Made by a program: the position numbers and the translations under genes. The notes beneath the pieces are model-generated. The model searched no databases and was not told the DNA's origin. It saw nothing but the letters and a program-made list of their open reading frames with translations. 44,988 nucleotides of DNA from a virus (Duplodnaviria > Heunggongvirae > Uroviricota > Caudoviricetes), in IMG/VR virus record IMGVR_UViG_643348544_000004. One strand, given 5' to 3'. Below, one piece after another: positions 1,308 through 13,519 of this stretch (position 1 is its first letter; each line of letters begins with the position of its first letter).

Positions 1308-3800
1308 TTAAAAATCAGCCTGACTCGGGAGCAGTTTTTGCCAGATGGCTGAAACGTATTTCGCCTGGTAACGTGCATCGTTCAGAGCGTTATGGCGTTC
1401 ACCTTCGAATGGAATAGTCGTTCTTGCGTCGAAATCCATCACCAGTCCCAGAGCAACCATCGTTCTTACATCGCGATCATTGGTGTAACGCCACGGGCAG
1501 GGGATCCCCTGCCGTTCATATGAACGGCGTAAAATCACGTTGTCGAAAGTTGCACCGTCACCCCAGACCTGAACAAAAAATTCACCGGAGTTTTCGTCGA
1601 TAAATTCCCGCAATTGTAACAGTGCATCATCTAACGGGATTTCATCGGTCATAATGGCAGATTGCGCTTCGCGTGATTGCTTAAGCCACCATTTAATGGT
1701 GTCCCGATCAATGACTCCGCCAGCAGTTTCCAGATCGATAGTCTTACTAAATTCCGGTCCCATATCTCCGGTTTGCGGATCGAAAAATATTGCACCTATT
1801 GAGATGATCGGGGCATCAGGATTTTTTCCCATGGTTTCAAGGTCGATCATTAGATGGTCACACGTCCTGCTGGTGGATGTGATAACGTGATGACCGTTCA
1901 CCGTAATTAAGGGATCTGCCGTCTCGCCAGTTTCACTATCGCTGGCGTGATCCTGAGCGCTACCAGCATTCTCCTTGTGTGGATGTTCAGCGCCTTCCAT
2001 TTCCTTCGGATCATTTTCCTGAACTTCAACCTGATTCTCTTCATCGAATGTTTCCTGGTATGTTGCGTCACCCATCACCGCGCCACAATCAGGGCAGTTG
2101 CCGCCACCGCTTTGACCGCAGGCGGTGCAGACTTTTTCCGGTTCCTGTTGCGCTACTGGCTCAGGTTGTTTCGTTTCTGGCTCGTTTTGTAACGCATTTG
2201 GGCTGTTTTGTTCCGCTTTCTGGCTGTTTTGTTCCGCTTTCTGGCCGTTCTGTTCCGTTTCTTGCTGGTTCTGATTCACTGAATCGCGGGTTTCAATCCC
2301 CTTCACCCATTTCGGATCATTCGGGTCGCTAATCCCTGCAACAAATTCACCACGTGATACAGCAAGCAACTTATTGGCGTCAGGCTGGCTGATATTGGCT
2401 GCCTGCATAATTTTGTTTACTTCGTCAGCGGTAACTTTTACCGGCTCTGGTTGTGCGATCGTGTCAGATGCACCAGTATTTTGTTGTGAACCTGAGTACG
2501 TGCCGTTTTTACGTGCGAAGTATTCCTCTTTTGTGATTTCCGTAGCTCCCAGGGCCAGTGCTTTTTCCAGACCAGAAAATTTGTTTGCGCGACCGTATTT
2601 TTCGCCGTCCTTATCGGTGAAAAGGAAGTAGAACGGTCCCTCACGCTCTACAGATGGTTCGTCTTCCACTTCGCATTCGGTTTTTTCGTTGTCCGGCATT
2701 GCCGTTTCCACTGCATCAGTTTCTGGTACTGGCGACGAGAGAGTATCAGTTGCGCTCTGATTTCTTCCTTCATCTTCAAACACGCCCTTTGTAGTCAGGT
2801 ATTCAGTAATGTATTTGTTCAGTGCCACAGGGTCTTTGTGAATGTCGATCGGACGTTCACGGACAAGGCCAAAAATAGTCTGGCGGTCGTAGCGAAGGGC
2901 ATCAGGCTGTTTGCGCATTGATGCCGAGATACGCTTCCAGTCTTCGCGGTCGTTGTCGATAACTTCATTTTTTGCCCAGCGATGGATGCTGCCGTCAATG
3001 TTTCCGGCATCCACATCACCAGGCCAGAGAGCGTAGGCCAGTTCGTCATCCAGTGTTTTCCATGTCTGCTTGTATTCGCGATGAATGGCAGCAATGACCG
3101 GGCTGATTTTTCCTGTTGAATTTTCACTGTGCTGTTGATTGGTTCTGGCGCGGGCGAGATCAACAACAGACGTGTATTTTCCGGTTTCCTTGCGTTCACC
3201 TTCGCGACGTTTTTTCCAGATGCGCATCTCTGCCTGAATTTCGGGCCATTTGGCACCAGGCTTACATTTATGCTTAACCCACCCGATGGCATGCAGCTTA
3301 AGCTCCGGATACATGGCGTTAACTTCTGGCATTTTCATCAACGCTTCAACGATATGTCCGTCGAATGTTGCCATGTCTTCCTGCAACAATTCCTGTGCGT
3401 TAATAACCATATCAACGGTGATGTTTTCACATGTGTCGAACTTAACCATGACAGCGTTCTGTACTTCAGGGGACAGCTTGTCAAAATTGACGTTCATCGG
3501 ATCGGATTCTGGTTCGACCGGAATAAAGGAAGCGGATTCCTCATCCCAGCGGTTTTCCTGCATATATTCAGCATCCCAGGAATCGAGGGCAGGGCGGGGT
3601 ATACCGGGTTTATCCTCGCAGACAAGAAATTTATAAGCGCAGTCCTGAGCAGCCGGATAATGTTCCAGGAATTGCCAGTGAAATTTTGCGCGGGCGCGAC
3701 GTTCATCACCGGCTTCAATGGCAGTGGCTACAGCGACGGCACCTTCTTCCTTTATTGCCTGTTCGTCCGGAATGGCGGCGCAAATAAAGACTTTACTCAT
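1308..3800 (-). CDS. RecE-like exodeoxyribonuclease VIII homolog with C-terminal DnaQ-like (DEDDh) 3'-5' exonuclease domain, 830 aa
   Basis: Central region recalled as near-identical to E. coli RecE (KLLAVSRGEFVAGISDPNDPKWVKGI..., CTACGQSGGGNCPDCGAVMGDATYQETFDE); C-terminus has DEDDh motifs (MIDLETMG, WGDGATFD, HNALNDARYQA) rather than the RecE nuclease fold. Confidence 0.85.
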   Translation of the reverse strand: MSKVFICAAIPDEQAIKEEGAVAVATAIEAGDERRARAKFHWQFLEHYPAAQDCAYKFLVCEDKPGIPRPALDSWDAEYMQENRWDEESASFIPVEPESDPMNVNFDKLSPEVQNAVMVKFDTCENITVDMVINAQELLQEDMATFDGHIVEALMKMPEVNAMYPELKLHAIGWVKHKCKPGAKWPEIQAEMRIWKKRREGERKETGKYTSVVDLARARTNQQHSENSTGKISPVIAAIHREYKQTWKTLDDELAYALWPGDVDAGNIDGSIHRWAKNEVIDNDREDWKRISASMRKQPDALRYDRQTIFGLVRERPIDIHKDPVALNKYITEYLTTKGVFEDEGRNQSATDTLSSPVPETDAVETAMPDNEKTECEVEDEPSVEREGPFYFLFTDKDGEKYGRANKFSGLEKALALGATEITKEEYFARKNGTYSGSQQNTGASDTIAQPEPVKVTADEVNKIMQAANISQPDANKLLAVSRGEFVAGISDPNDPKWVKGIETRDSVNQNQQETEQNGQKAEQNSQKAEQNSPNALQNEPETKQPEPVAQQEPEKVCTACGQSGGGNCPDCGAVMGDATYQETFDEENQVEVQENDPKEMEGAEHPHKENAGSAQDHASDSETGETADPLITVNGHHVITSTSRTCDHLMIDLETMGKNPDAPIISIGAIFFDPQTGDMGPEFSKTIDLETAGGVIDRDTIKWWLKQSREAQSAIMTDEIPLDDALLQLREFIDENSGEFFVQVWGDGATFDNVILRRSYERQGIPCPWRYTNDRDVRTMVALGLVMDFDARTTIPFEGERHNALNDARYQAKYVSAIWQKLLPSQADF
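2200..2262. repeat. Three tandem copies of a 21-bp unit (TGGCTGTTTTGTTCCGCTTTC, third copy degenerate) inside the recE-like gene
   Basis: Direct reading of sequence; encodes repeated QKAEQNS heptapeptides in a low-complexity Q/E-rich linker. Confidence 0.8.
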
Positions 3801-3895: not shown

Positions 3896-4084
3896 TTATC
3901 CAGCCGGTATTTCGTTATTCAGGTTCAGCGATACTTTTTTTAACGGGAGGCATTCACCGGGGATTTTTTGTTCGTCCCTTACCTGAATGCAGGATGACTT
4001 ACTGTCATAAATTCCGGTAATCACATTTTGTGGCTCACCCGTTATAAGAAAAACGGTCATCACCAGTGCAAATGCTGAAGTCAC
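3896..4084 (-). CDS. Hypothetical small protein (62 aa) with hydrophobic N-terminus
   Basis: ORF directly upstream of recE-like gene on same strand; stop overlaps start region of the next ORF (ATGA-type coupling); no recognisable family. Confidence 0.3.
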   Translation of the reverse strand: MTSAFALVMTVFLITGEPQNVITGIYDSKSSCIQVRDEQKIPGECLPLKKVSLNLNNEIPAG

Positions 4085-4269
4085 TGCTGTTCTCCGATAA
4101 TACCAAGTTCAAGAAGGGCAATTCTGGAAAGTATGGAATTATCATTGAGAAGATAAGGTTCATATTTTCTCATCTTAATGGCATCTTCCGTAAACTCCCG
4201 GTTACTGAGCAGAACACCAATATCAAAACAACCTTCAGACGTATTAACGTTTGGTAATAACGTTTCCAT
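4081..4269 (-). CDS. Hypothetical small protein (62 aa, start METLLPNVN...)
   Basis: Internal Met of the 97-aa frame chosen; translationally coupled to downstream small ORF; no recognisable family. Confidence 0.3.
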   Translation of the reverse strand: METLLPNVNTSEGCFDIGVLLSNREFTEDAIKMRKYEPYLLNDNSILSRIALLELGIIGEQQ

Positions 4270-4286
4270 TATCGCGTCCTCAACAA

Positions 4287-4434
4287 TGAATTTTGTGATG
4301 CGGTGCCTGGTGCCTCCAGGTGACGTTAACCAGTTAACAATTAACGCCGGATACAGAGAATCCACCCATAACACTGTTTTTGGTTTTAACTGTTCCGCGT
4401 GCGCTCAGCCGCATTCACCACATCACAAAATTCA
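4287..4434. repeat. Pair of perfect 14-bp inverted repeats (TGAATTTTGTGATG / CATCACAAAATTCA) flanking about 120 bp of palindrome-rich DNA
   Basis: Read directly: copy 1 at 4287-4300, reverse-complement copy at 4421-4434; interior contains CCTGGTGCCTCCAGG and GTTAACCAGTTAAC palindromes; sits in a roughly 570-bp stretch with no convincing ORF. Confidence 0.6.
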
Positions 4435-4836
4435 CTTTAAAAAGGGCGGCAGAGCAGTCACGGAGTAAAACTGATACCGCCAAACGTCACCAGAAAATTG
4501 ATAACAGAGGGCGTTGCAGCGGGGTTGTCACTTAAGCGTATGGTCAACCTGACAACCCGGTGTCCTCAACGGGGAAGGAATAACCCCGCCATACTTACCG
4601 CCGCGCCATTTCGCGGGTTGCCACAACCGGAAGCGCACGGTCGACGAAAATTTAACGACAGGCTATCTATGAACCAGCTACCTCGCCGTGCGCTTTCGCT
4701 TTATGCCCTGACTTTTCAGGGACATATCCTTTCAGTAAACTGTCAGTGCCGGATGTTCACCCGTGTCCGGCGCACGCACTCCACCTGACCCGTGGAGAAC
4801 TCCTTAATTACCAACCTTAGCTTCGTTGGTTAGCTA

Positions 4837-5055
4837 TTAACGCGGGTATGTAACCATTCTGGCAATGCTTAATGCCGCTGCTTTTTCCAGCCTGGTGATA
4901 TCCTGCTCCAGAGCGGACAGATTTTCAGCCTGCTTAGTCCTGGCTTCATTGGCCCATTTCAGATCCTGCACTGCATTAATTTTCTGGCGCATCCACTCAT
5001 AAAGTTCATCATCGGTATAGTCTGGCGCGATGATGACGGGTTCTCGTTTCTGCAT
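4837..5055 (-). CDS. Hypothetical early protein, 72 aa (Qin YdfC-like by recollection)
   Basis: ORF MQKREPVIIAPDYTDDELYEWMRQKINAVQDLKW...; same strand and operon position as the small genes downstream of dicA in Qin-type prophages. Confidence 0.45.
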   Translation of the reverse strand: MQKREPVIIAPDYTDDELYEWMRQKINAVQDLKWANEARTKQAENLSALEQDITRLEKAAALSIARMVTYPR

Positions 5056-5084
5056 ACTGATTCCTCGCGGTGCTGTTTCGCTTA

Positions 5085-5213
5085 TCAGCCGTTAGATTTT
5101 GCCGAACTGGAAAGCGCCTGTTTAAATTCGTTGAAGCTGAGAGTTTCTTCGCCTTCGGCAAGACCATCGAAGTATTCTTCGTAAGCCTTTTCCATGATTG
5201 TGTCGAAATCCAT
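5085..5213 (-). CDS. Small protein, 42 aa (MDFDTIMEKAYEEYFDGLAEGEETLSFNEFKQALSSSAKSNG), YdfB-like
   Basis: Below the 60-aa track cutoff; found by manual translation of minus strand; start 1 nt after stop of upstream small gene. Confidence 0.4.
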   Translation of the reverse strand: MDFDTIMEKAYEEYFDGLAEGEETLSFNEFKQALSSSAKSNG

Positions 5214-5214
5214 A

Positions 5215-5370
5215 TCACTCACCTGAGTTTCTTTCCAGCCAGCGACGGGCACCATTTTCGGTTTTAAACGTTTTGCTTTTGGTATACGTCATCGCGGTGA
5301 ACGTGCCGTCCTGGTTGGGAAACACGCCGCATACCAGAGATTCGTTGTTGCCAAGATCGATAGTATCCAT
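5215..5370 (-). CDS. Small protein, 51 aa (MDTIDLGNNESLVCGVFPNQDGTFTAMTYTKSKTFKTENGARRWLERNSGE), YdfA-like
   Basis: Internal Met of the 69-aa frame; first gene downstream of dicA on the same strand. Confidence 0.45.
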   Translation of the reverse strand: MDTIDLGNNESLVCGVFPNQDGTFTAMTYTKSKTFKTENGARRWLERNSGE

Positions 5371-5449
5371 GCTGACCTCATTTCCCCTTAACGCCAGGGT
5401 AGCGGAACTGTTTGCTGAGAACACCGTGCGGTGTCTTGATGAGTAGAAT

Positions 5450-5463
5450 TTAGAATAACCTAA
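5450..5463. promoter_or_regulatory. Operator-like palindrome TTAG-N6-CTAA (TTAGAATAACCTAA) downstream of dicA, upstream of ydfA-like gene
   Basis: Same half-site arrangement as the sites in the dicA-dicC intergenic region; 12 of 13 identical to the 5987-6000 site when read on the opposite strand. Confidence 0.35.
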
Positions 5464-5577
5464 GAATTGTGGTCAAGCTTTTTGTGTAGAAAAACCTAAG
5501 TTTTTTGATGTAAAAAACACAAGCATTTGAAAGTTTATGCTTTTTATTACAGAGAGTGGCGAAAAAAAGGGAGGGGG

Positions 5578-5985
5578 TTATTTATTTGCGCTTCTTTTGC
5601 GAGCTTTGAGTAGTTCTTCAAAAAGTTTGTTGAAATTCTCAACTCGAGCACGCATCTCTGACAACAGAGCCTTTTGCTCTGACTCAGGCAGTGCGTCGAA
5701 CAGTTGAAGCAACTCTTTTTGATCTTCTGTCAGATTAACTGGCTGATTATCTGGGATCGGTTCGCCTGGTTGCTTATCTTCATCTCCAAAAAGAAGCCAA
5801 GTCGGCGAGCACTGAAGCGCCTGGCTCAGTGCGAATAATCTCTTCCCCGCTGGCTGTGTTTCATCTCTTTCCCATTGAGAAATTGTTACGTGAGCCACTT
5901 TGACCAGCTTACCTAATGCGGCCTGAGACAGTTTTAATTTTTTACGCCTGTATAAGAGGCGAGCACCGAAGGTTTCGTTTTTCAT
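5578..5985 (-). CDS. dicA: DicA-like HTH (XRE-family) repressor, 135 aa
   Basis: Same length as E. coli DicA and strongly similar from memory (LFALSQALQCSPTWLLFGDEDKQP..., EMRARVENFNKLFEELLKARKR); divergent from a dicC-like gene. Confidence 0.85.
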   Translation of the reverse strand: MKNETFGARLLYRRKKLKLSQAALGKLVKVAHVTISQWERDETQPAGKRLFALSQALQCSPTWLLFGDEDKQPGEPIPDNQPVNLTEDQKELLQLFDALPESEQKALLSEMRARVENFNKLFEELLKARKRSANK

Positions 5986-6061
5986 ATTAGGTAATTCTAA
6001 TTTTTCTTGACTTAGGTTTCTCTACGATCTAGTTTCCTTAGGAAAATCTAAGGAGTTCGAT
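5986..6061. promoter_or_regulatory. dicA-dicC divergent promoter/operator region with three TTAG-N6-CTAA-type palindromes
   Basis: Sites read at 5987-6000 (TTAGGTAATTCTAA), 6012-6025 (TTAGGTTTCTCTAC, imperfect) and 6036-6053 (CCTTAGGAAAATCTAAGG); candidate -35 TTGACT at 6007-6012 and -10 TAGTTT at 6030-6035 for rightward transcription. Confidence 0.5.
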
Positions 6062-6289
6062 ATGTTGAAAATTGATGCTATAGCGTTTTTTGGCAGCAAA
6101 ACAAAGCTTGCCAATGCCGCAGGAGTTAGGCTGGCAAGCGTTGCTGCATGGGGGAAACTGGTTCCTGAAGGTCGCGCGATGCGTCTACAGGAGGCATCCG
6201 GCGGGGAACTTCAGTACGACCCCAAAGTTTATGACGAATATCGTAAGGCAAAGCGGGCGGGGCGGTTGAACAATGAAAATCACCCCTGA
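6062..6289 (+). CDS. dicC: DicC-like Cro-type regulator, 75 aa
   Basis: Divergent from dicA with AAGGAG RBS; sequence (…LVPEGRAMRLQEASGGELQYDPKVYDEYRKAKRAGRLNNENH) matches remembered DicC. Confidence 0.8.
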   Translation: MLKIDAIAFFGSKTKLANAAGVRLASVAAWGKLVPEGRAMRLQEASGGELQYDPKVYDEYRKAKRAGRLNNENHP

Positions 6290-6824
6290 ACAGGTTTGTG
6301 AGGCTCTGGATGCCTGGGTATGTCGACCAGGAATGACACAGGAGCAAGCGACGATATTAATCACGGAAGCATTCTGGGCTCTGAAAGAACGCCCGAACAT
6401 CGATGTTCAACGCGTCACGTTTAATGATGGCGAGGTTGATCAACGGGCGCTGGGCGTTAACCGGGTGAAGATATTCGAACGCTGGAAAGCTATCGACACC
6501 AGGGATAAGCGGAAAAAATTCACGGCGCTGATTCCGGCAATTATGGAGGCTATCCGAATTAGTGATTTCAGGTTGTATCGTGAGATCAGTGATGGAAAAA
6601 GCATTACGTACATGATCGCCGGATTAAACAAAGAATATGGCGATGTGGTGGAGTCCGGGCTGCTTTTTGCGGATCCAGCTGTTGTGGAACGTGAGACTGA
6701 CGAGCTTATAGAAAAAGCTATTGCTTTCAAGCATGCGTATCGTCAGCAATATCAATATTACTTTGCAGATAAACAAATGTCTGCCAGGGGTTTGTATGAG
6801 TATCGATGCACTACGATGGGCTAA
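6273..6824 (+). CDS. Hypothetical early protein (YdaT-like), 183 aa
   Basis: Start overlaps dicC stop; N-terminal pattern MKI...E... resembles Rac YdaT by recollection; occupies the CII-equivalent position. Confidence 0.45.
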   Translation: MKITPEQVCEALDAWVCRPGMTQEQATILITEAFWALKERPNIDVQRVTFNDGEVDQRALGVNRVKIFERWKAIDTRDKRKKFTALIPAIMEAIRISDFRLYREISDGKSITYMIAGLNKEYGDVVESGLLFADPAVVERETDELIEKAIAFKHAYRQQYQYYFADKQMSARGLYEYRCTTMG

Positions 6825-7836
6825 AAAGGTGAAAACCGGCAGTTCATCCAGTAAGTCTGTATTGACCTGGCTTGCTGATATGTGCGGTGCCGATTTGTGT
6901 GCATACCCGTCTGTATCTGCACTGGCAGAAGTAACGGAACTAAACAAAAAGACTGTGCAGGACAGCTTACGACACCTGATGGAGATTGGGTTAATTGTTG
7001 ATACCGGTGAGAGAAAAGGCAGAACAAAGCAAATTGTGGTGTACCGACTTATCGGTGTAGAAGAAAGTGTTGCCGAGCCTGAATACACCCAAAAACGGGA
7101 GTCTTTAAAGGTGGGTAAAATTGGTGCTGTTAATAAAAACAGTACCGAAAATGGTTATGTTTCAGCACAAAACAGACCCAAAAACGGAACTCTTAGCTGC
7201 ATGGAAAATAACCAAAGACACCCAAATTTTCCATCAAAGACACCCAAAAACGGATCACGGAACCCAAAGGAACCCAAAGATCTAAACCCCACACATAACG
7301 CACGCGAGAGTGCTCCGACCAGTGAGCAGGAAGTTTTGTCGTTACAGGCAGCACCCCTTGTATTCCTGGATGGCCTGAGCGAACCCATCGGAAAATTTCC
7401 GATGACCGATAGCTGGTATCCGTCACGGGATTTTCGACGACGGGCTGCGTTGTGGGGGATGGCTTTGCCGGAGACAGAATTTACACCTGCTGAACTTGCC
7501 GCCTTCCGGGACTACTGGGCAGCGGAGGGGAAAGTGTTTACGCAGATTCAGTGGGAGCAGAAATTCGCCCGTCACGTAAATCACGTCAGGGCGCAGGTTA
7601 AACCAGTCAGCAAGGGGGTAAACCATGCAGCAGCACCAGGTGGCACCGCATCACGGGCAGTTCAGGAAATTCGGGCAGCACGTGAGCAGTGGGAACGTGA
7701 AAACGGATTTATCAGCGACGGAAACGGTCTGGAAGCTGTGGGAGCTTATGGGGGAGGTGTATTCGAACCGCTGGACACAGAAGAACGGGGCCGCACCTTC
7801 GAAGCTCTGGATTGCCCAGATTGGCGCGATGACTGA
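6796..7836 (+). CDS. Replication initiator (O-like), N-terminal winged HTH, iterons inside gene, 346 aa
   Basis: Start MSIDALRWAKK chosen within the 371-aa frame; HTH-type N-terminus; internal iteron-like repeats; followed by a P-like gene whose candidate start overlaps its stop (ATGACTGA). Confidence 0.65.
   Translation: MSIDALRWAKKVKTGSSSSKSVLTWLADMCGADLCAYPSVSALAEVTELNKKTVQDSLRHLMEIGLIVDTGERKGRTKQIVVYRLIGVEESVAEPEYTQKRESLKVGKIGAVNKNSTENGYVSAQNRPKNGTLSCMENNQRHPNFPSKTPKNGSRNPKEPKDLNPTHNARESAPTSEQEVLSLQAAPLVFLDGLSEPIGKFPMTDSWYPSRDFRRRAALWGMALPETEFTPAELAAFRDYWAAEGKVFTQIQWEQKFARHVNHVRAQVKPVSKGVNHAAAPGGTASRAVQEIRAAREQWERENGFISDGNGLEAVGAYGGGVFEPLDTEERGRTFEALDCPDWRDD
7177..7280. repeat. Iteron-like direct repeats (CCCAAAAACGGA x2, AAAGACACCCAAA x2, GAACCCAAAG x2): candidate replication origin
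   Basis: Read directly from sequence within the O-like gene, analogous to lambda ori lying inside O. Confidence 0.4.
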
Positions 7837-13150: not shown

Positions 13151-13267
13151 TCAACGCATTTGAAGTTCTGGACGGTGCCGGAATAGAATCAAAAATACTT
13201 AAGTAGCGCGCAGGGATAAGAGGGATGGTCCCTTAAAGGGGAGAGCTAATTATCCGGAAGGATTCTG

Positions 13268-13519
13268 ATGATGAACATCGAAGAACTGCGTAAAATTTTT
13301 TGTGAAGATGGCCTCTATGCTGTGTGCGTTGAAAATGGAAATATTGTTAGTCATTACCGCATTGTGTGTTTGCAAAAAAATGGGGCTGCGTTAATTAATT
13401 TTGTGGATGCCCGAGTGACGGACGGATTTATCTTGCGCGACGGTGAGTTTGTCACTTCATTACAGGTATTGAAAGAGATCGGAATAAAAGCTGGCTTTTC
13501 TGCTTTTTCAGAAGAATAA
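13268..13519 (+). CDS. Hypothetical phage protein, 83 aa
   Basis: ORF with GGAAGG RBS; no recognisable family. Confidence 0.4.
   Translation: MMNIEELRKIFCEDGLYAVCVENGNIVSHYRIVCLQKNGAALINFVDARVTDGFILRDGEFVTSLQVLKEIGIKAGFSAFSEE

What the first reader, a model, noticed from the sequence alone, without database searches (positions are those of the whole stretch)
5450..6061. DicA/DicC-type immunity switch with four TTAG-N6-CTAA-type operator-like sites, one outside the divergent promoter region
The repressor matches DicA rather than lambda CI, and no N, cIII or rexAB genes are present. I find three TTAG-N6-CTAA-type sites in the dicA-dicC intergenic region (5987-6000, 6012-6025, 6036-6053) and a fourth (5450-5463) downstream of dicA just upstream of the ydfA-like small-gene operon. 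The fourth site suggests the repressor also controls the leftward small-gene operon.
Basis: partly seen in the sequence, partly recalled or inferred. Interest (0 to 1): 0.4.

Follow-up and report, generated by a model that had tools for sequence, protein, structure and literature searches.

The report
Ordinary DicA/DicC prophage immunity operators
The palindromes are real and conserved, but they are the left and right operator sets of a Qin/P22-style prophage repressor switch described since the 1980s, so the finding is correct and ordinary.

Summary
Exact TTAG-N6-CTAA occurs three times in the 45-kb window (5450, 5987, 6038), against 0.16 expected. A one-mismatch site lies at 6012.

The genes match the E. 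coli Qin dic locus:
- a 135-aa DicA homologue, 63% identical to K-12 DicA
- a divergent DicC, 84% identical
- a leftward ydfA-ydfB-ydfC-DicF-dicB-ydfD operon
- a Rem antirepressor, 94% identical

TTAG-N6-CTAA is the core of K-12 operator Oc (TTGTTAGTCATAACTAACAA), the only DicA site tested experimentally. In nine intact related loci from eight other genera or species, exact sites number 27 in 2.7 kb of dicA flanks and 0 in 27 kb outside. Their spacing is fixed: about 50 bp across the right array and 35-36 bp in the left array.

The "fourth" site lies between the -35 and -10 of a PL-like promoter homologous to K-12 dicBp, which DicA represses 22-fold. The geometry matches the P22 immC region.

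No binding was tested here. In K-12, DicA alone bound Oc but not Oa or Om.

The parts
5450..5463 (.). OL1-like operator, TTAGAATAACCTAA. It lies in the spacer of the leftward PL/dicBp-like promoter and overlaps its -10.
   Evidence: Exact motif. Homologous to the K-12 dicBp site TTAGCCATGACTAA. An equivalent site is present in every related locus.
5486..5499 (.). OL2-like operator, GTAGAAAAACCTAA (reverse complement TTAGGTTTTTCTAC). It starts 36 bp from OL1, upstream of the -35.
   Evidence: One-mismatch hit. 94% complementary to the middle right-hand site over 16 nt. A site at the same 35-36 bp offset is present in 8 of the 9 intact related loci, and is an exact palindrome in 5 of them. P22 OL1-OL2 spacing is also 35 bp.
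5447..5476 (-). PL/dicBp-like sigma-70 promoter: -35 TTGACC (5476-5471), 18-bp spacer, -10 TAAATT (5452-5447).
   Evidence: Promoter scan, 9 of 12 matches. Aligns with the K-12 dicBp region, where the TTGACC is invariant. Same layout as P22 PL.
5578..5985 (-). dicA-like repressor gene (135 aa).
   Evidence: ORF. Pfam HTH_3. 63% identical to K-12 DicA. P22 C2 N-terminal domain match, E = 1e-21. 100% identical proteins are annotated dicA in PPompW phage records.
5987..6000 (.). OR3/Oa-like operator, TTAGGTAATTCTAA. It ends 1 bp from the dicA start codon and contains a possible dicA -10 (TAGAAT on the minus strand).
   Evidence: Exact motif. A site at -15/-16 from the dicA ATG is present in all intact related loci and in K-12. 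P22 OR3 abuts the c2 ATG in the same way.
6012..6025 (.). OR2/Om-like operator, TTAGGTTTCTCTAC (one mismatch). It overlaps the last base of the dicC -35 and fills most of the spacer.
   Evidence: The same imperfect site lies at -40 in the Pantoea and Erwinia loci, and its CCTAAG half-site is kept in most others. P22 OR2 overlaps the PR -35 TTGACT in the same way.
6036..6053 (.). OR1/Oc-like operator, CCTTAGGAAAATCTAAGG. It lies just downstream of the dicC -10 and overlaps the start region and the dicC Shine-Dalgarno sequence.
   Evidence: Exact core 6038-6051. Positional homologue of K-12 Oc, which DicA binds in vivo.
6007..6035 (+). PR/dicCp-like promoter: -35 TTGACT (6007-6012), 17-bp spacer, -10 TAGTTT (6030-6035).
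   Evidence: Assigned by alignment to the K-12 dicC promoter, whose start site was mapped by 5'RACE (PMC3441716). The scan tool did not call it because the -10 is weak.
6062..6289 (+). dicC-like Cro-type repressor gene (75 aa).
   Evidence: Pfam P22_Cro, 50 bits. 84% identical to K-12 DicC.
6273..6824 (+). YdaT-family gene, second gene of the rightward operon.
   Evidence: Pfam YdaT_toxin. RefSeq annotation of the identical sequence.
3896..5370 (-). Leftward operon under the PL-like promoter: ydfA 5215-5370, ydfB-like 5085-5213, ydfC 4837-5055, DicF RNA 4444-4495, dicB 4081-4269, DUF1482/ydfD-like 3896-4084.
   Evidence: Pfam DUF1391, DicB and DUF1482. Rfam DicF, 76.7 bits. RefSeq annotation of the 100% identical stretch.
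13268..13519 (+). rem-like gene, the putative antirepressor of the DicA-type repressor.
   Evidence: ORF. 94% identical to K-12 Rem. K-12 Rem derepresses dicBp 165-fold (PMC10448788).

Best explanation
Region 5447-6053 is the immunity control region of a lambdoid (PPompW/Qin-type) prophage. It consists of two operator arrays flanking the repressor gene dicA. The right array (5987, 6012, 6038) lies between dicA and dicC and is laid out like P22 OR3-OR2-OR1. The dicC-proximal site covers the start region of the dicC promoter. The middle site sits in the -35/spacer of that promoter. The dicA-proximal site abuts the dicA start codon.

The left array (5450, 5486) lies at a PL-like promoter, the homologue of K-12 dicBp. 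This promoter drives ydfA-ydfB-ydfC-DicF-dicB-ydfD. The proximal site sits between the -35 and -10, so a bound dimer would exclude RNA polymerase.

Shown here: the sites exist, are far above chance, and are conserved in position and spacing across genera. The genes are DicA, DicC and Rem homologues, and the promoters align with the K-12 and P22 ones.

Taken from published K-12 work: DicA binds Oc, represses dicC and dicBp, and activates dicA; DicC opposes it, giving a bistable switch; Rem relieves repression.

Inferred, not shown: this DicA homologue binds these five sites as a dimer through its P22-C2-like helix-turn-helix domain; DicC uses the same sites with a different preference order; and induction goes through Rem rather than RecA-stimulated self-cleavage.
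For: Motif statistics: 3 exact sites against 0.16 expected, all within 600 bp. 5 of 8 one-mismatch sites are in the same region. No further site occurs elsewhere in the window.

Gene identities.

The motif equals the core of the experimentally defined K-12 Oc operator, and a point mutation in its CTAA half abolishes binding (PMC3441716). K-12 has exact sites at the same three positions.

Comparative test: in nine intact loci from Pantoea, Enterobacter, Erwinia, E. ruysiae, E. albertii, Buttiauxella, two Citrobacter and Yersinia, there are 27 exact sites in 2.7 kb of dicA flanks and 0 in 27 kb outside. Positions are fixed at -15/-16 and -65/-66 from the dicA ATG. The downstream pair starts 35-36 bp apart, although the spacer bases and even the downstream genes differ.

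The promoter scan places 5450-5463 between the -35 TTGACC and the -10 TAAATT. P22 immC has the same geometry.

DicA represses dicBp 22-fold and Rem derepresses it 165-fold in K-12. That paper states that both the dicA-dicC region and the dicA-dicBp region carry operator sequences (PMC10448788).
Against: No binding or expression data exist for this allele, which is only 63% identical to K-12 DicA.

In K-12, DicA alone bound Oc but neither Oa nor Om in an in vivo assay, although Oa has a perfect TTAG-N6-CTAA core. The core is therefore not sufficient, and some of the five sites may need cooperativity or may be DicC sites.

RegulonDB, as quoted by the Reg-Seq paper, treats the DicA site at dicB as low-evidence with unknown location (PMC7567609). 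The left-array assignment therefore rests on sequence and comparison even in K-12.

The dicC -10 (TAGTTT) is weak and was assigned only by homology.
Confidence: 0.85

Rival explanations
1. The five sites are divided between the two regulators. DicA on its own occupies only the dicC-proximal site (and perhaps 5450). The dicA-proximal, middle and 5486 sites are mainly DicC (Cro-like) sites, or are filled only cooperatively. This refines the main model rather than replacing it.
For: In K-12, DicA bound Oc but not Oa or Om when each was tested alone (PMC3441716). The middle right-hand site and the distal left-hand site share the same imperfect form, TTAGGTTT(C/T)TCTAC. That imperfect form is kept in the Pantoea, Erwinia and Enterobacter loci, which suggests selection for a distinct affinity class.
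Against: In lambda, P22 and 434 both repressors use all the operators (established knowledge). The K-12 negative result was 'data not shown' and used isolated sites, so cooperative binding was not assessed. Here 5450 resembles the dicA-proximal site more than the dicC-proximal one (88% complementary), yet it sits where repression of the leftward promoter requires the maintenance repressor.
Confidence: 0.3
2. The site at 5450-5463 is a chance palindrome in an AT-rich promoter, and the repressor acts only at the divergent region.
For: The region is AT-rich, and the CTAA half overlaps the -10 hexamer, which would be conserved anyway.
Against: Only 0.16 exact matches are expected in the whole 45-kb window. 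An equivalent site, usually exact, lies in the same promoter position in all related loci, with variable inner bases. The upstream TTAG half is conserved too, and it is not part of any promoter hexamer. K-12 dicBp is DicA-repressed.
Confidence: 0.02
3. The left array serves mainly as a looping anchor that strengthens autoregulation at the right array (as with lambda OL-OR octamerisation), not primarily as a repressor block of the leftward operon.
For: The two arrays are mirror images about 0.5 kb apart and enclose the repressor gene. Spacings are conserved.
Against: The proximal left site lies inside the promoter core, which is sufficient for direct repression. The C-terminal half of DicA has no detectable relation to the CI/C2 oligomerisation domain. 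No evidence of looping is reported in the two K-12 DicA papers read here.
Confidence: 0.05

Closest known systems
E. coli K-12 Qin prophage dic locus: dicA-dicC with operators Oa, Om and Oc, plus dicBp driving ydfABC-dicF-dicB-ydfDE
   Same: Same gene order and orientation. DicA is 63% identical, DicC 84% and Rem 94%. The DicF RNA and dicB are present. The operator core TTAG-N6-CTAA is the same and sits at the same three positions relative to the dicA ATG and the dicBp -35/-10.
   Different: The inner operator bases and flanks differ: TTAGR-N4-YCTAA, with CC..GG flanks on the dicC-proximal site, against K-12 TTGTTAG(T/C)...CTAACAA. Residues before and within the recognition helix differ (VAHVTISQWE against ISHVSVSQWE). 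This may be a different immunity specificity, which was not tested. The distal left site is a good one-mismatch site here and degenerate in K-12 (TATG-N6-CTAA). The prophage here looks complete, with replication, Q, structural genes and an integrase, whereas Qin is cryptic.
Salmonella phage P22 immC (c2-cro with OR1-3, and PL with OL1-3)
   Same: The repressor N-terminal domain is homologous (E = 1e-21 to the solved C2 DNA-binding domain). The geometry matches: a 14-bp core of two 5-bp half-sites around 4 bp, OR3 abutting the repressor ATG, OR2 overlapping the -35 TTGACT of PR, OL1 between -35 TTGACC and -10 of PL, and 35 bp from OL1 to OL2.
   Different: The P22 half-site is TTAAG; here it is TTAGR. 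P22 C2 has a C-terminal LexA-like self-cleaving domain and is SOS-inducible, whereas this repressor is 135 aa with no such domain. P22 has the antiterminator gene 24 (N analogue) and nutL downstream of PL, whereas here the first gene is ydfA. No third left-hand site was found here.
Lambda CI/Cro switch with OR and OL
   Same: The logic is the same: a divergent maintenance repressor and Cro, a tripartite right operator, and a left operator controlling the early leftward operon. This analogy is drawn explicitly in PMC10448788.
   Different: There is no sequence relationship in the operators. There is no RecA-dependent cleavage module, and no N, cIII or rexAB genes. Induction is presumably through an antirepressor.

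Membership tests
DicA/DicC (Qin-type) prophage immunity module | Short (about 135 aa) repressor with an N-terminal HTH_3 domain homologous to DicA and the P22 C2 N-terminal domain, and no S24 self-cleavage domain | tested here: met
   135 aa. Pfam finds HTH_3 only (52.7 bits) and no Peptidase_S24. 63% identical to K-12 DicA end to end. PDB sequence matches are confined to residues 2-69.
DicA/DicC (Qin-type) prophage immunity module | Divergently transcribed Cro-like DicC | tested here: met
   Pfam P22_Cro, 50 bits against a cut-off of 30.2. 84% identical to K-12 DicC.
DicA/DicC (Qin-type) prophage immunity module | Operators with the inverted-repeat core of Oc (TTAG-N6-CTAA) in the dicA-dicC intergenic region | tested here: met
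   Two exact sites and one one-mismatch site. Same positions as in K-12. Conserved in nine other loci.
DicA/DicC (Qin-type) prophage immunity module | PL-like promoter (dicBp) downstream of dicA, carrying an operator and driving ydfABC-dicF-dicB | tested here: met
   Promoter-like site with the operator in its spacer. Alignment with K-12 dicBp. ydfA, ydfC, DicF, dicB and DUF1482 identified.
DicA/DicC (Qin-type) prophage immunity module | Repressor actually binds the operators and represses dicC and the leftward operon | not testable with these tools
   Only K-12 data exist (PMC3441716 and PMC10448788). Nothing exists for this allele.
DicA/DicC (Qin-type) prophage immunity module | Rem-type antirepressor encoded in the same prophage | tested here: met
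   ORF 13268-13519, 94% identical to K-12 Rem. Its activity on this DicA was not tested.
Lambda CI / LexA-like self-cleaving repressors | C-terminal S24 peptidase domain with an Ala-Gly cleavage site in a linker | tested here: not met
   No S24 domain in Pfam and only 135 aa. An Ala-Gly dipeptide occurs at residues 46-47, inside the HTH domain and not in a linker.
P22 immC | Operator half-site TTAAG, and gene 24 (N analogue) with nutL downstream of PL | tested here: not met
   Half-sites here are TTAGG or TTAGA. No N-like gene is annotated or detected leftward, whereas P22 has one. The geometry is nevertheless shared.

The most novel reading that the evidence does not exclude
The two arrays form a mirror-image pair about 0.5 kb apart around the repressor gene. 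The proximal left site matches the dicA-proximal right site, and the distal left site matches the middle right site (15 of 16 bases). The 'defective' CTAC half-site is conserved across genera. This could reflect a designed affinity hierarchy and DicA-mediated looping that encloses its own gene. The conserved two-hairpin leader just downstream of the left promoter might then act as an N-independent antitermination or RNA-stabilising element. Nothing here excludes this reading, and nothing beyond sequence conservation supports it.
Probability: 0.12. Interest if true: 0.4.

Novelty: already known. Interest (0 to 1): 0.12.

Why it matters
It matters little as a discovery. [quoted passage not shown]

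Two modest by-products may be useful. First, cross-genus comparison supports an exact location for the operator at the dicBp-type promoter, between the -35 and the -10. As quoted in the 2020 Reg-Seq paper, RegulonDB listed that location as unknown for K-12. Second, the comparison yields a five-site map for this immunity allele, which could guide footprinting or immunity-specificity experiments.

Tried and rejected
- A weight-matrix scan of the whole window looked for further repressor targets, for example near rem or the late genes. Nothing scored above shuffle level.
- I looked for a third left-hand site, as in lambda and P22. No candidate lies between 5500 and 5577.
- Rfam at gathering and at permissive thresholds over the control region gave only DicF. 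The three weak hits (E = 0.2 to 4.8) are chance.
- RNAalifold on the leader captured only one short helix. Single-sequence folds are not more stable than shuffles in E. coli (z = 0.2 to 0.3). The leader structure therefore remains a lead, not a result.
- The promoter scan did not call the dicC promoter, so I assigned it by homology instead.
- I considered and rejected a lambda-CI-type classification, because there is no S24 domain.
- I considered and rejected chance as the explanation for the 5450 site.
- Two fetched loci, L012 and L013, are frameshifted or degraded copies. I left them out of the enrichment count.

Full report
**1. The observation**

Reading 4800-6900 shows the four stated sites at the stated coordinates:
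- 5450-5463, TTAGAATAACCTAA
- 5987-6000, TTAGGTAATTCTAA
- 6012-6025, TTAGGTTTCTCTAC (CTAC in place of CTAA)
- 6036-6053, CCTTAGGAAAATCTAAGG (core 6038-6051)

Exact TTAG-N6-CTAA occurs three times in the whole 44,988-bp window, on both strands, and all three are these sites. Shuffles give a mean of 0.16, and none of 100 reached three.

With one mismatch allowed there are eight matches in the window, which is not above chance (8.7 expected). Five of the eight lie within 5450-6051.

A motif-blind repeat search on 5380-6080 recovers the same elements. It reports a direct repeat 5451-5471/5487-5507 starting 36 bp apart. It also reports inverted pairs 5447-5463/5987-6003 (88% complementary) and 5486-5501/6010-6025 (94%).

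A weight matrix built from the five sites scores them 18.8-23.1. The next best position in the window scores 11.3, inside the range of shuffle maxima. That matrix was trained on the same sites, so this shows only that no sixth site exists.

**2. What surrounds the sites**

- 5578-5985 (minus strand) encodes a 135-aa protein with an HTH_3 domain only. It is 63% identical to K-12 DicA over its full length. Residues 2-69 match the solved P22 C2 DNA-binding domain at E = 1e-21, and the C-terminal half matches nothing in the PDB by sequence.
- 6062-6289 (plus strand) is a P22_Cro-family protein, 84% identical to K-12 DicC. A YdaT-family gene follows it.
- Leftward of dicA lie ydfA (DUF1391), a ydfB-like ORF, ydfC, the DicF RNA (Rfam 76.7 bits against a gathering score of 48, at 4444-4495, minus strand), dicB, a DUF1482/ydfD-like gene and an exonuclease.
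- The RefSeq annotation of a 100% identical stretch in E. coli O111:H21 strain 15A lists the protein-coding genes among these, and no N, cIII or rex genes.
- Identical repressor proteins are annotated 'dicA: regulator for DicB' in deposited PPompW prophage genomes of enterohaemorrhagic E. coli.
- The window also carries a rem homologue (13268-13519, plus strand), 94% identical to K-12 Rem.

**3. Link to known operators**

Yun et al. (PMC3441716) give the K-12 operator Oc as TTGTTAGTCATAACTAACAA, which is TTAG-N6-CTAA with TTG/CAA flanks. DicA binds it in vivo, and one A-to-C change in the CTAA half abolishes binding.

In the K-12 sequence (L001) I find exact TTAG-N6-CTAA at three places:
- Oc, 3340-3353
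- next to the dicA start, 3290-3303 (Oa)
- in the dicA-ydfA intergenic region, 2794-2807

These are the same three places as in the window.

Ragunathan et al. (PMC10448788) state that both the dicA-dicC region and the dicA-dicBp region contain operator sequences. They report that deleting dicA induces dicBp 22-fold and that Rem derepresses it 165-fold. They also conclude that DicA and DicC form a bistable switch.

**4. Promoter context**

On the minus strand the scan finds -35 TTGACC (5476-5471), an 18-bp spacer and -10 TAAATT (5452-5447). Site 5450-5463 fills the spacer and overlaps the first three bases of the -10. Site 5486-5499 lies about 10 bp upstream of the -35.

The K-12 alignment keeps the TTGACC and the CTAA of the distal site.

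On the plus strand I assign the dicC promoter from the alignment with K-12, where the dicC start was mapped by 5'RACE. It has -35 TTGACT (6007-6012) and -10 TAGTTT (6030-6035). On that assignment:
- the middle site sits in the -35/spacer
- the 6036-6053 site covers the start region and the dicC ribosome-binding site
- the 5987-6000 site ends 1 bp from the dicA ATG

P22 immC has the same plan. OR3 abuts the c2 ATG. OR2 overlaps the -35 TTGACT of PR. OL1 lies between -35 TTGACC and the -10 of PL. OL1 to OL2 is 35 bp. The P22 core reads TTAAG-N4-CTTAA; here it reads TTAGR-N4-YCTAA.

**5.

A genome scan with the repressor returned 11 loci, nine of them intact. They come from Pantoea stewartii, Enterobacter hormaechei, Erwinia sp., Escherichia ruysiae, E. 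albertii, Buttiauxella gaviniae, two Citrobacter and Yersinia aleksiciae. Repressor identity to the window protein ranges from 53% to 74%.

In these loci the sites show a fixed pattern:
- a site at -15/-16 from the dicA ATG in every intact locus
- a site at -65/-66 from the dicA ATG in every intact locus
- a half-site or imperfect site near -40
- two sites starting 35-36 bp apart downstream of dicA (only one detectable in Yersinia)

Counting over the nine loci gives 27 exact sites in 2.7 kb of flanks and 0 in 27 kb elsewhere. With one mismatch allowed the counts are 36 and 5.

The six central bases vary between loci. In several loci the first gene after the left promoter is unrelated to ydfA. 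The conservation is therefore of the sites and not of the neighbourhood. The refutation condition is not met.

**6. Mechanism**

The best-supported model is the standard lambdoid one. Repressor dimers on the right array shut off dicC and regulate dicA. Dimers on the left array block RNA polymerase at the dicBp-like promoter and silence DicF, DicB and their neighbours. DicC competes for the same sites. Rem, not RecA-stimulated cleavage, inactivates the repressor.

Shown here: site existence, statistics, conservation, promoter overlap and gene homology. Borrowed from K-12 experiments: binding to Oc, repression and Rem action. Inferred: everything about this specific allele.

One caveat applies. 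In K-12, DicA alone bound Oc but not Oa or Om, although Oa has the perfect core. Flanks or cooperativity therefore matter, and some sites may be mainly DicC sites. The Reg-Seq paper also notes that RegulonDB held the DicA site at dicB as low-evidence with unknown location (PMC7567609).

**7. Novelty**

The system, its operators and control of the leftward operon are already described. This allele is already deposited and annotated as dicA. The additions here are small:
- a fifth site
- a comparative placement of the left operator inside the promoter core
- the observation that the left and right arrays are near mirror images

Interest is low.

Noticed in passing
window 5371-5442, minus strand (also L001 2714-2786; L003, L004, L008, L009 downstream of their proximal left sites): The transcribed leader of the leftward promoter is conserved across genera even where the first downstream gene is not ydfA. 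It has a 'CCATCA' start region (also in P22 PL), a 5'-proximal hairpin whose outer stem differs between loci (GACACC/GGUGUU; AAUCAC/GUGAUU; GUAAC.CAC/GUG.UUAC), conserved CUCAG and GUUCCGC, and a second hairpin (CCCU-GGCGUUA-AGGG) with CG-to-GC double changes in 3 of 10 sequences. It occupies the place of P22 nutL (boxA/boxB), yet no N-like gene is present. There is no Rfam match, and the folds are not more stable than shuffles in E. coli. Its function is unexplained; it could be a 5' stabiliser, a nut relic or a protein site.
   Followed up: partly
It starts 36 bp from the 5450 site and matches the middle right-hand site (6010-6025) at 15 of 16 bases in inverted orientation. The same imperfect CTAC half is conserved in the Enterobacter and Erwinia loci.
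   Followed up: yes
window 13268-13519, plus strand: A rem homologue, 94% identical to the K-12 Rem antirepressor, whereas the repressor it presumably targets is only 63% identical to K-12 DicA. The C-terminal third of DicA is the best-conserved part and may be the Rem target. A short palindrome, TACTTAAGTA, lies upstream at about 13196-13205. No obvious LexA box was seen by eye in the 170 bp upstream of rem.
   Followed up: partly
window 5511-5546: An imperfect inverted repeat (AGCAT-N10-ATGCT within A/T runs) just after the dicA stop codon. It lies in a 40-bp segment absent from K-12 and may be a weak bidirectional terminator between dicA and the left promoter.
   Followed up: no
window 5990-5995, minus strand: TAGAAT, a near-consensus -10, lies inside the dicA-proximal operator and ends 8 bp before the dicA ATG. 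This suggests a leaderless or near-leaderless dicA mRNA (as for lambda cI from PRM) whose promoter would be shut by occupancy of that operator. This comes from reading the sequence only.
   Followed up: no
window about 2205-2270, within the exonuclease ORF 1308-3800 (minus strand): Three tandem 21-bp repeats (GTTCCGCTTTCTGGC(T/C)GTT(T/C)T) encode repeated QNSQKAE-like heptads in an acidic low-complexity linker of the 830-aa exonuclease.
   Followed up: no
whole window compared with L014 (LC567836, PPompW_EH2246): The window is a mosaic relative of PPompW prophages. Segments are 94-95% identical across the int-exo-dic-replication region but only 83-88% identical or absent further right. The repressor is 100% identical, while rem is only 72% identical to the PPompW copy and 94% identical to the K-12 copy.
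   Followed up: partly
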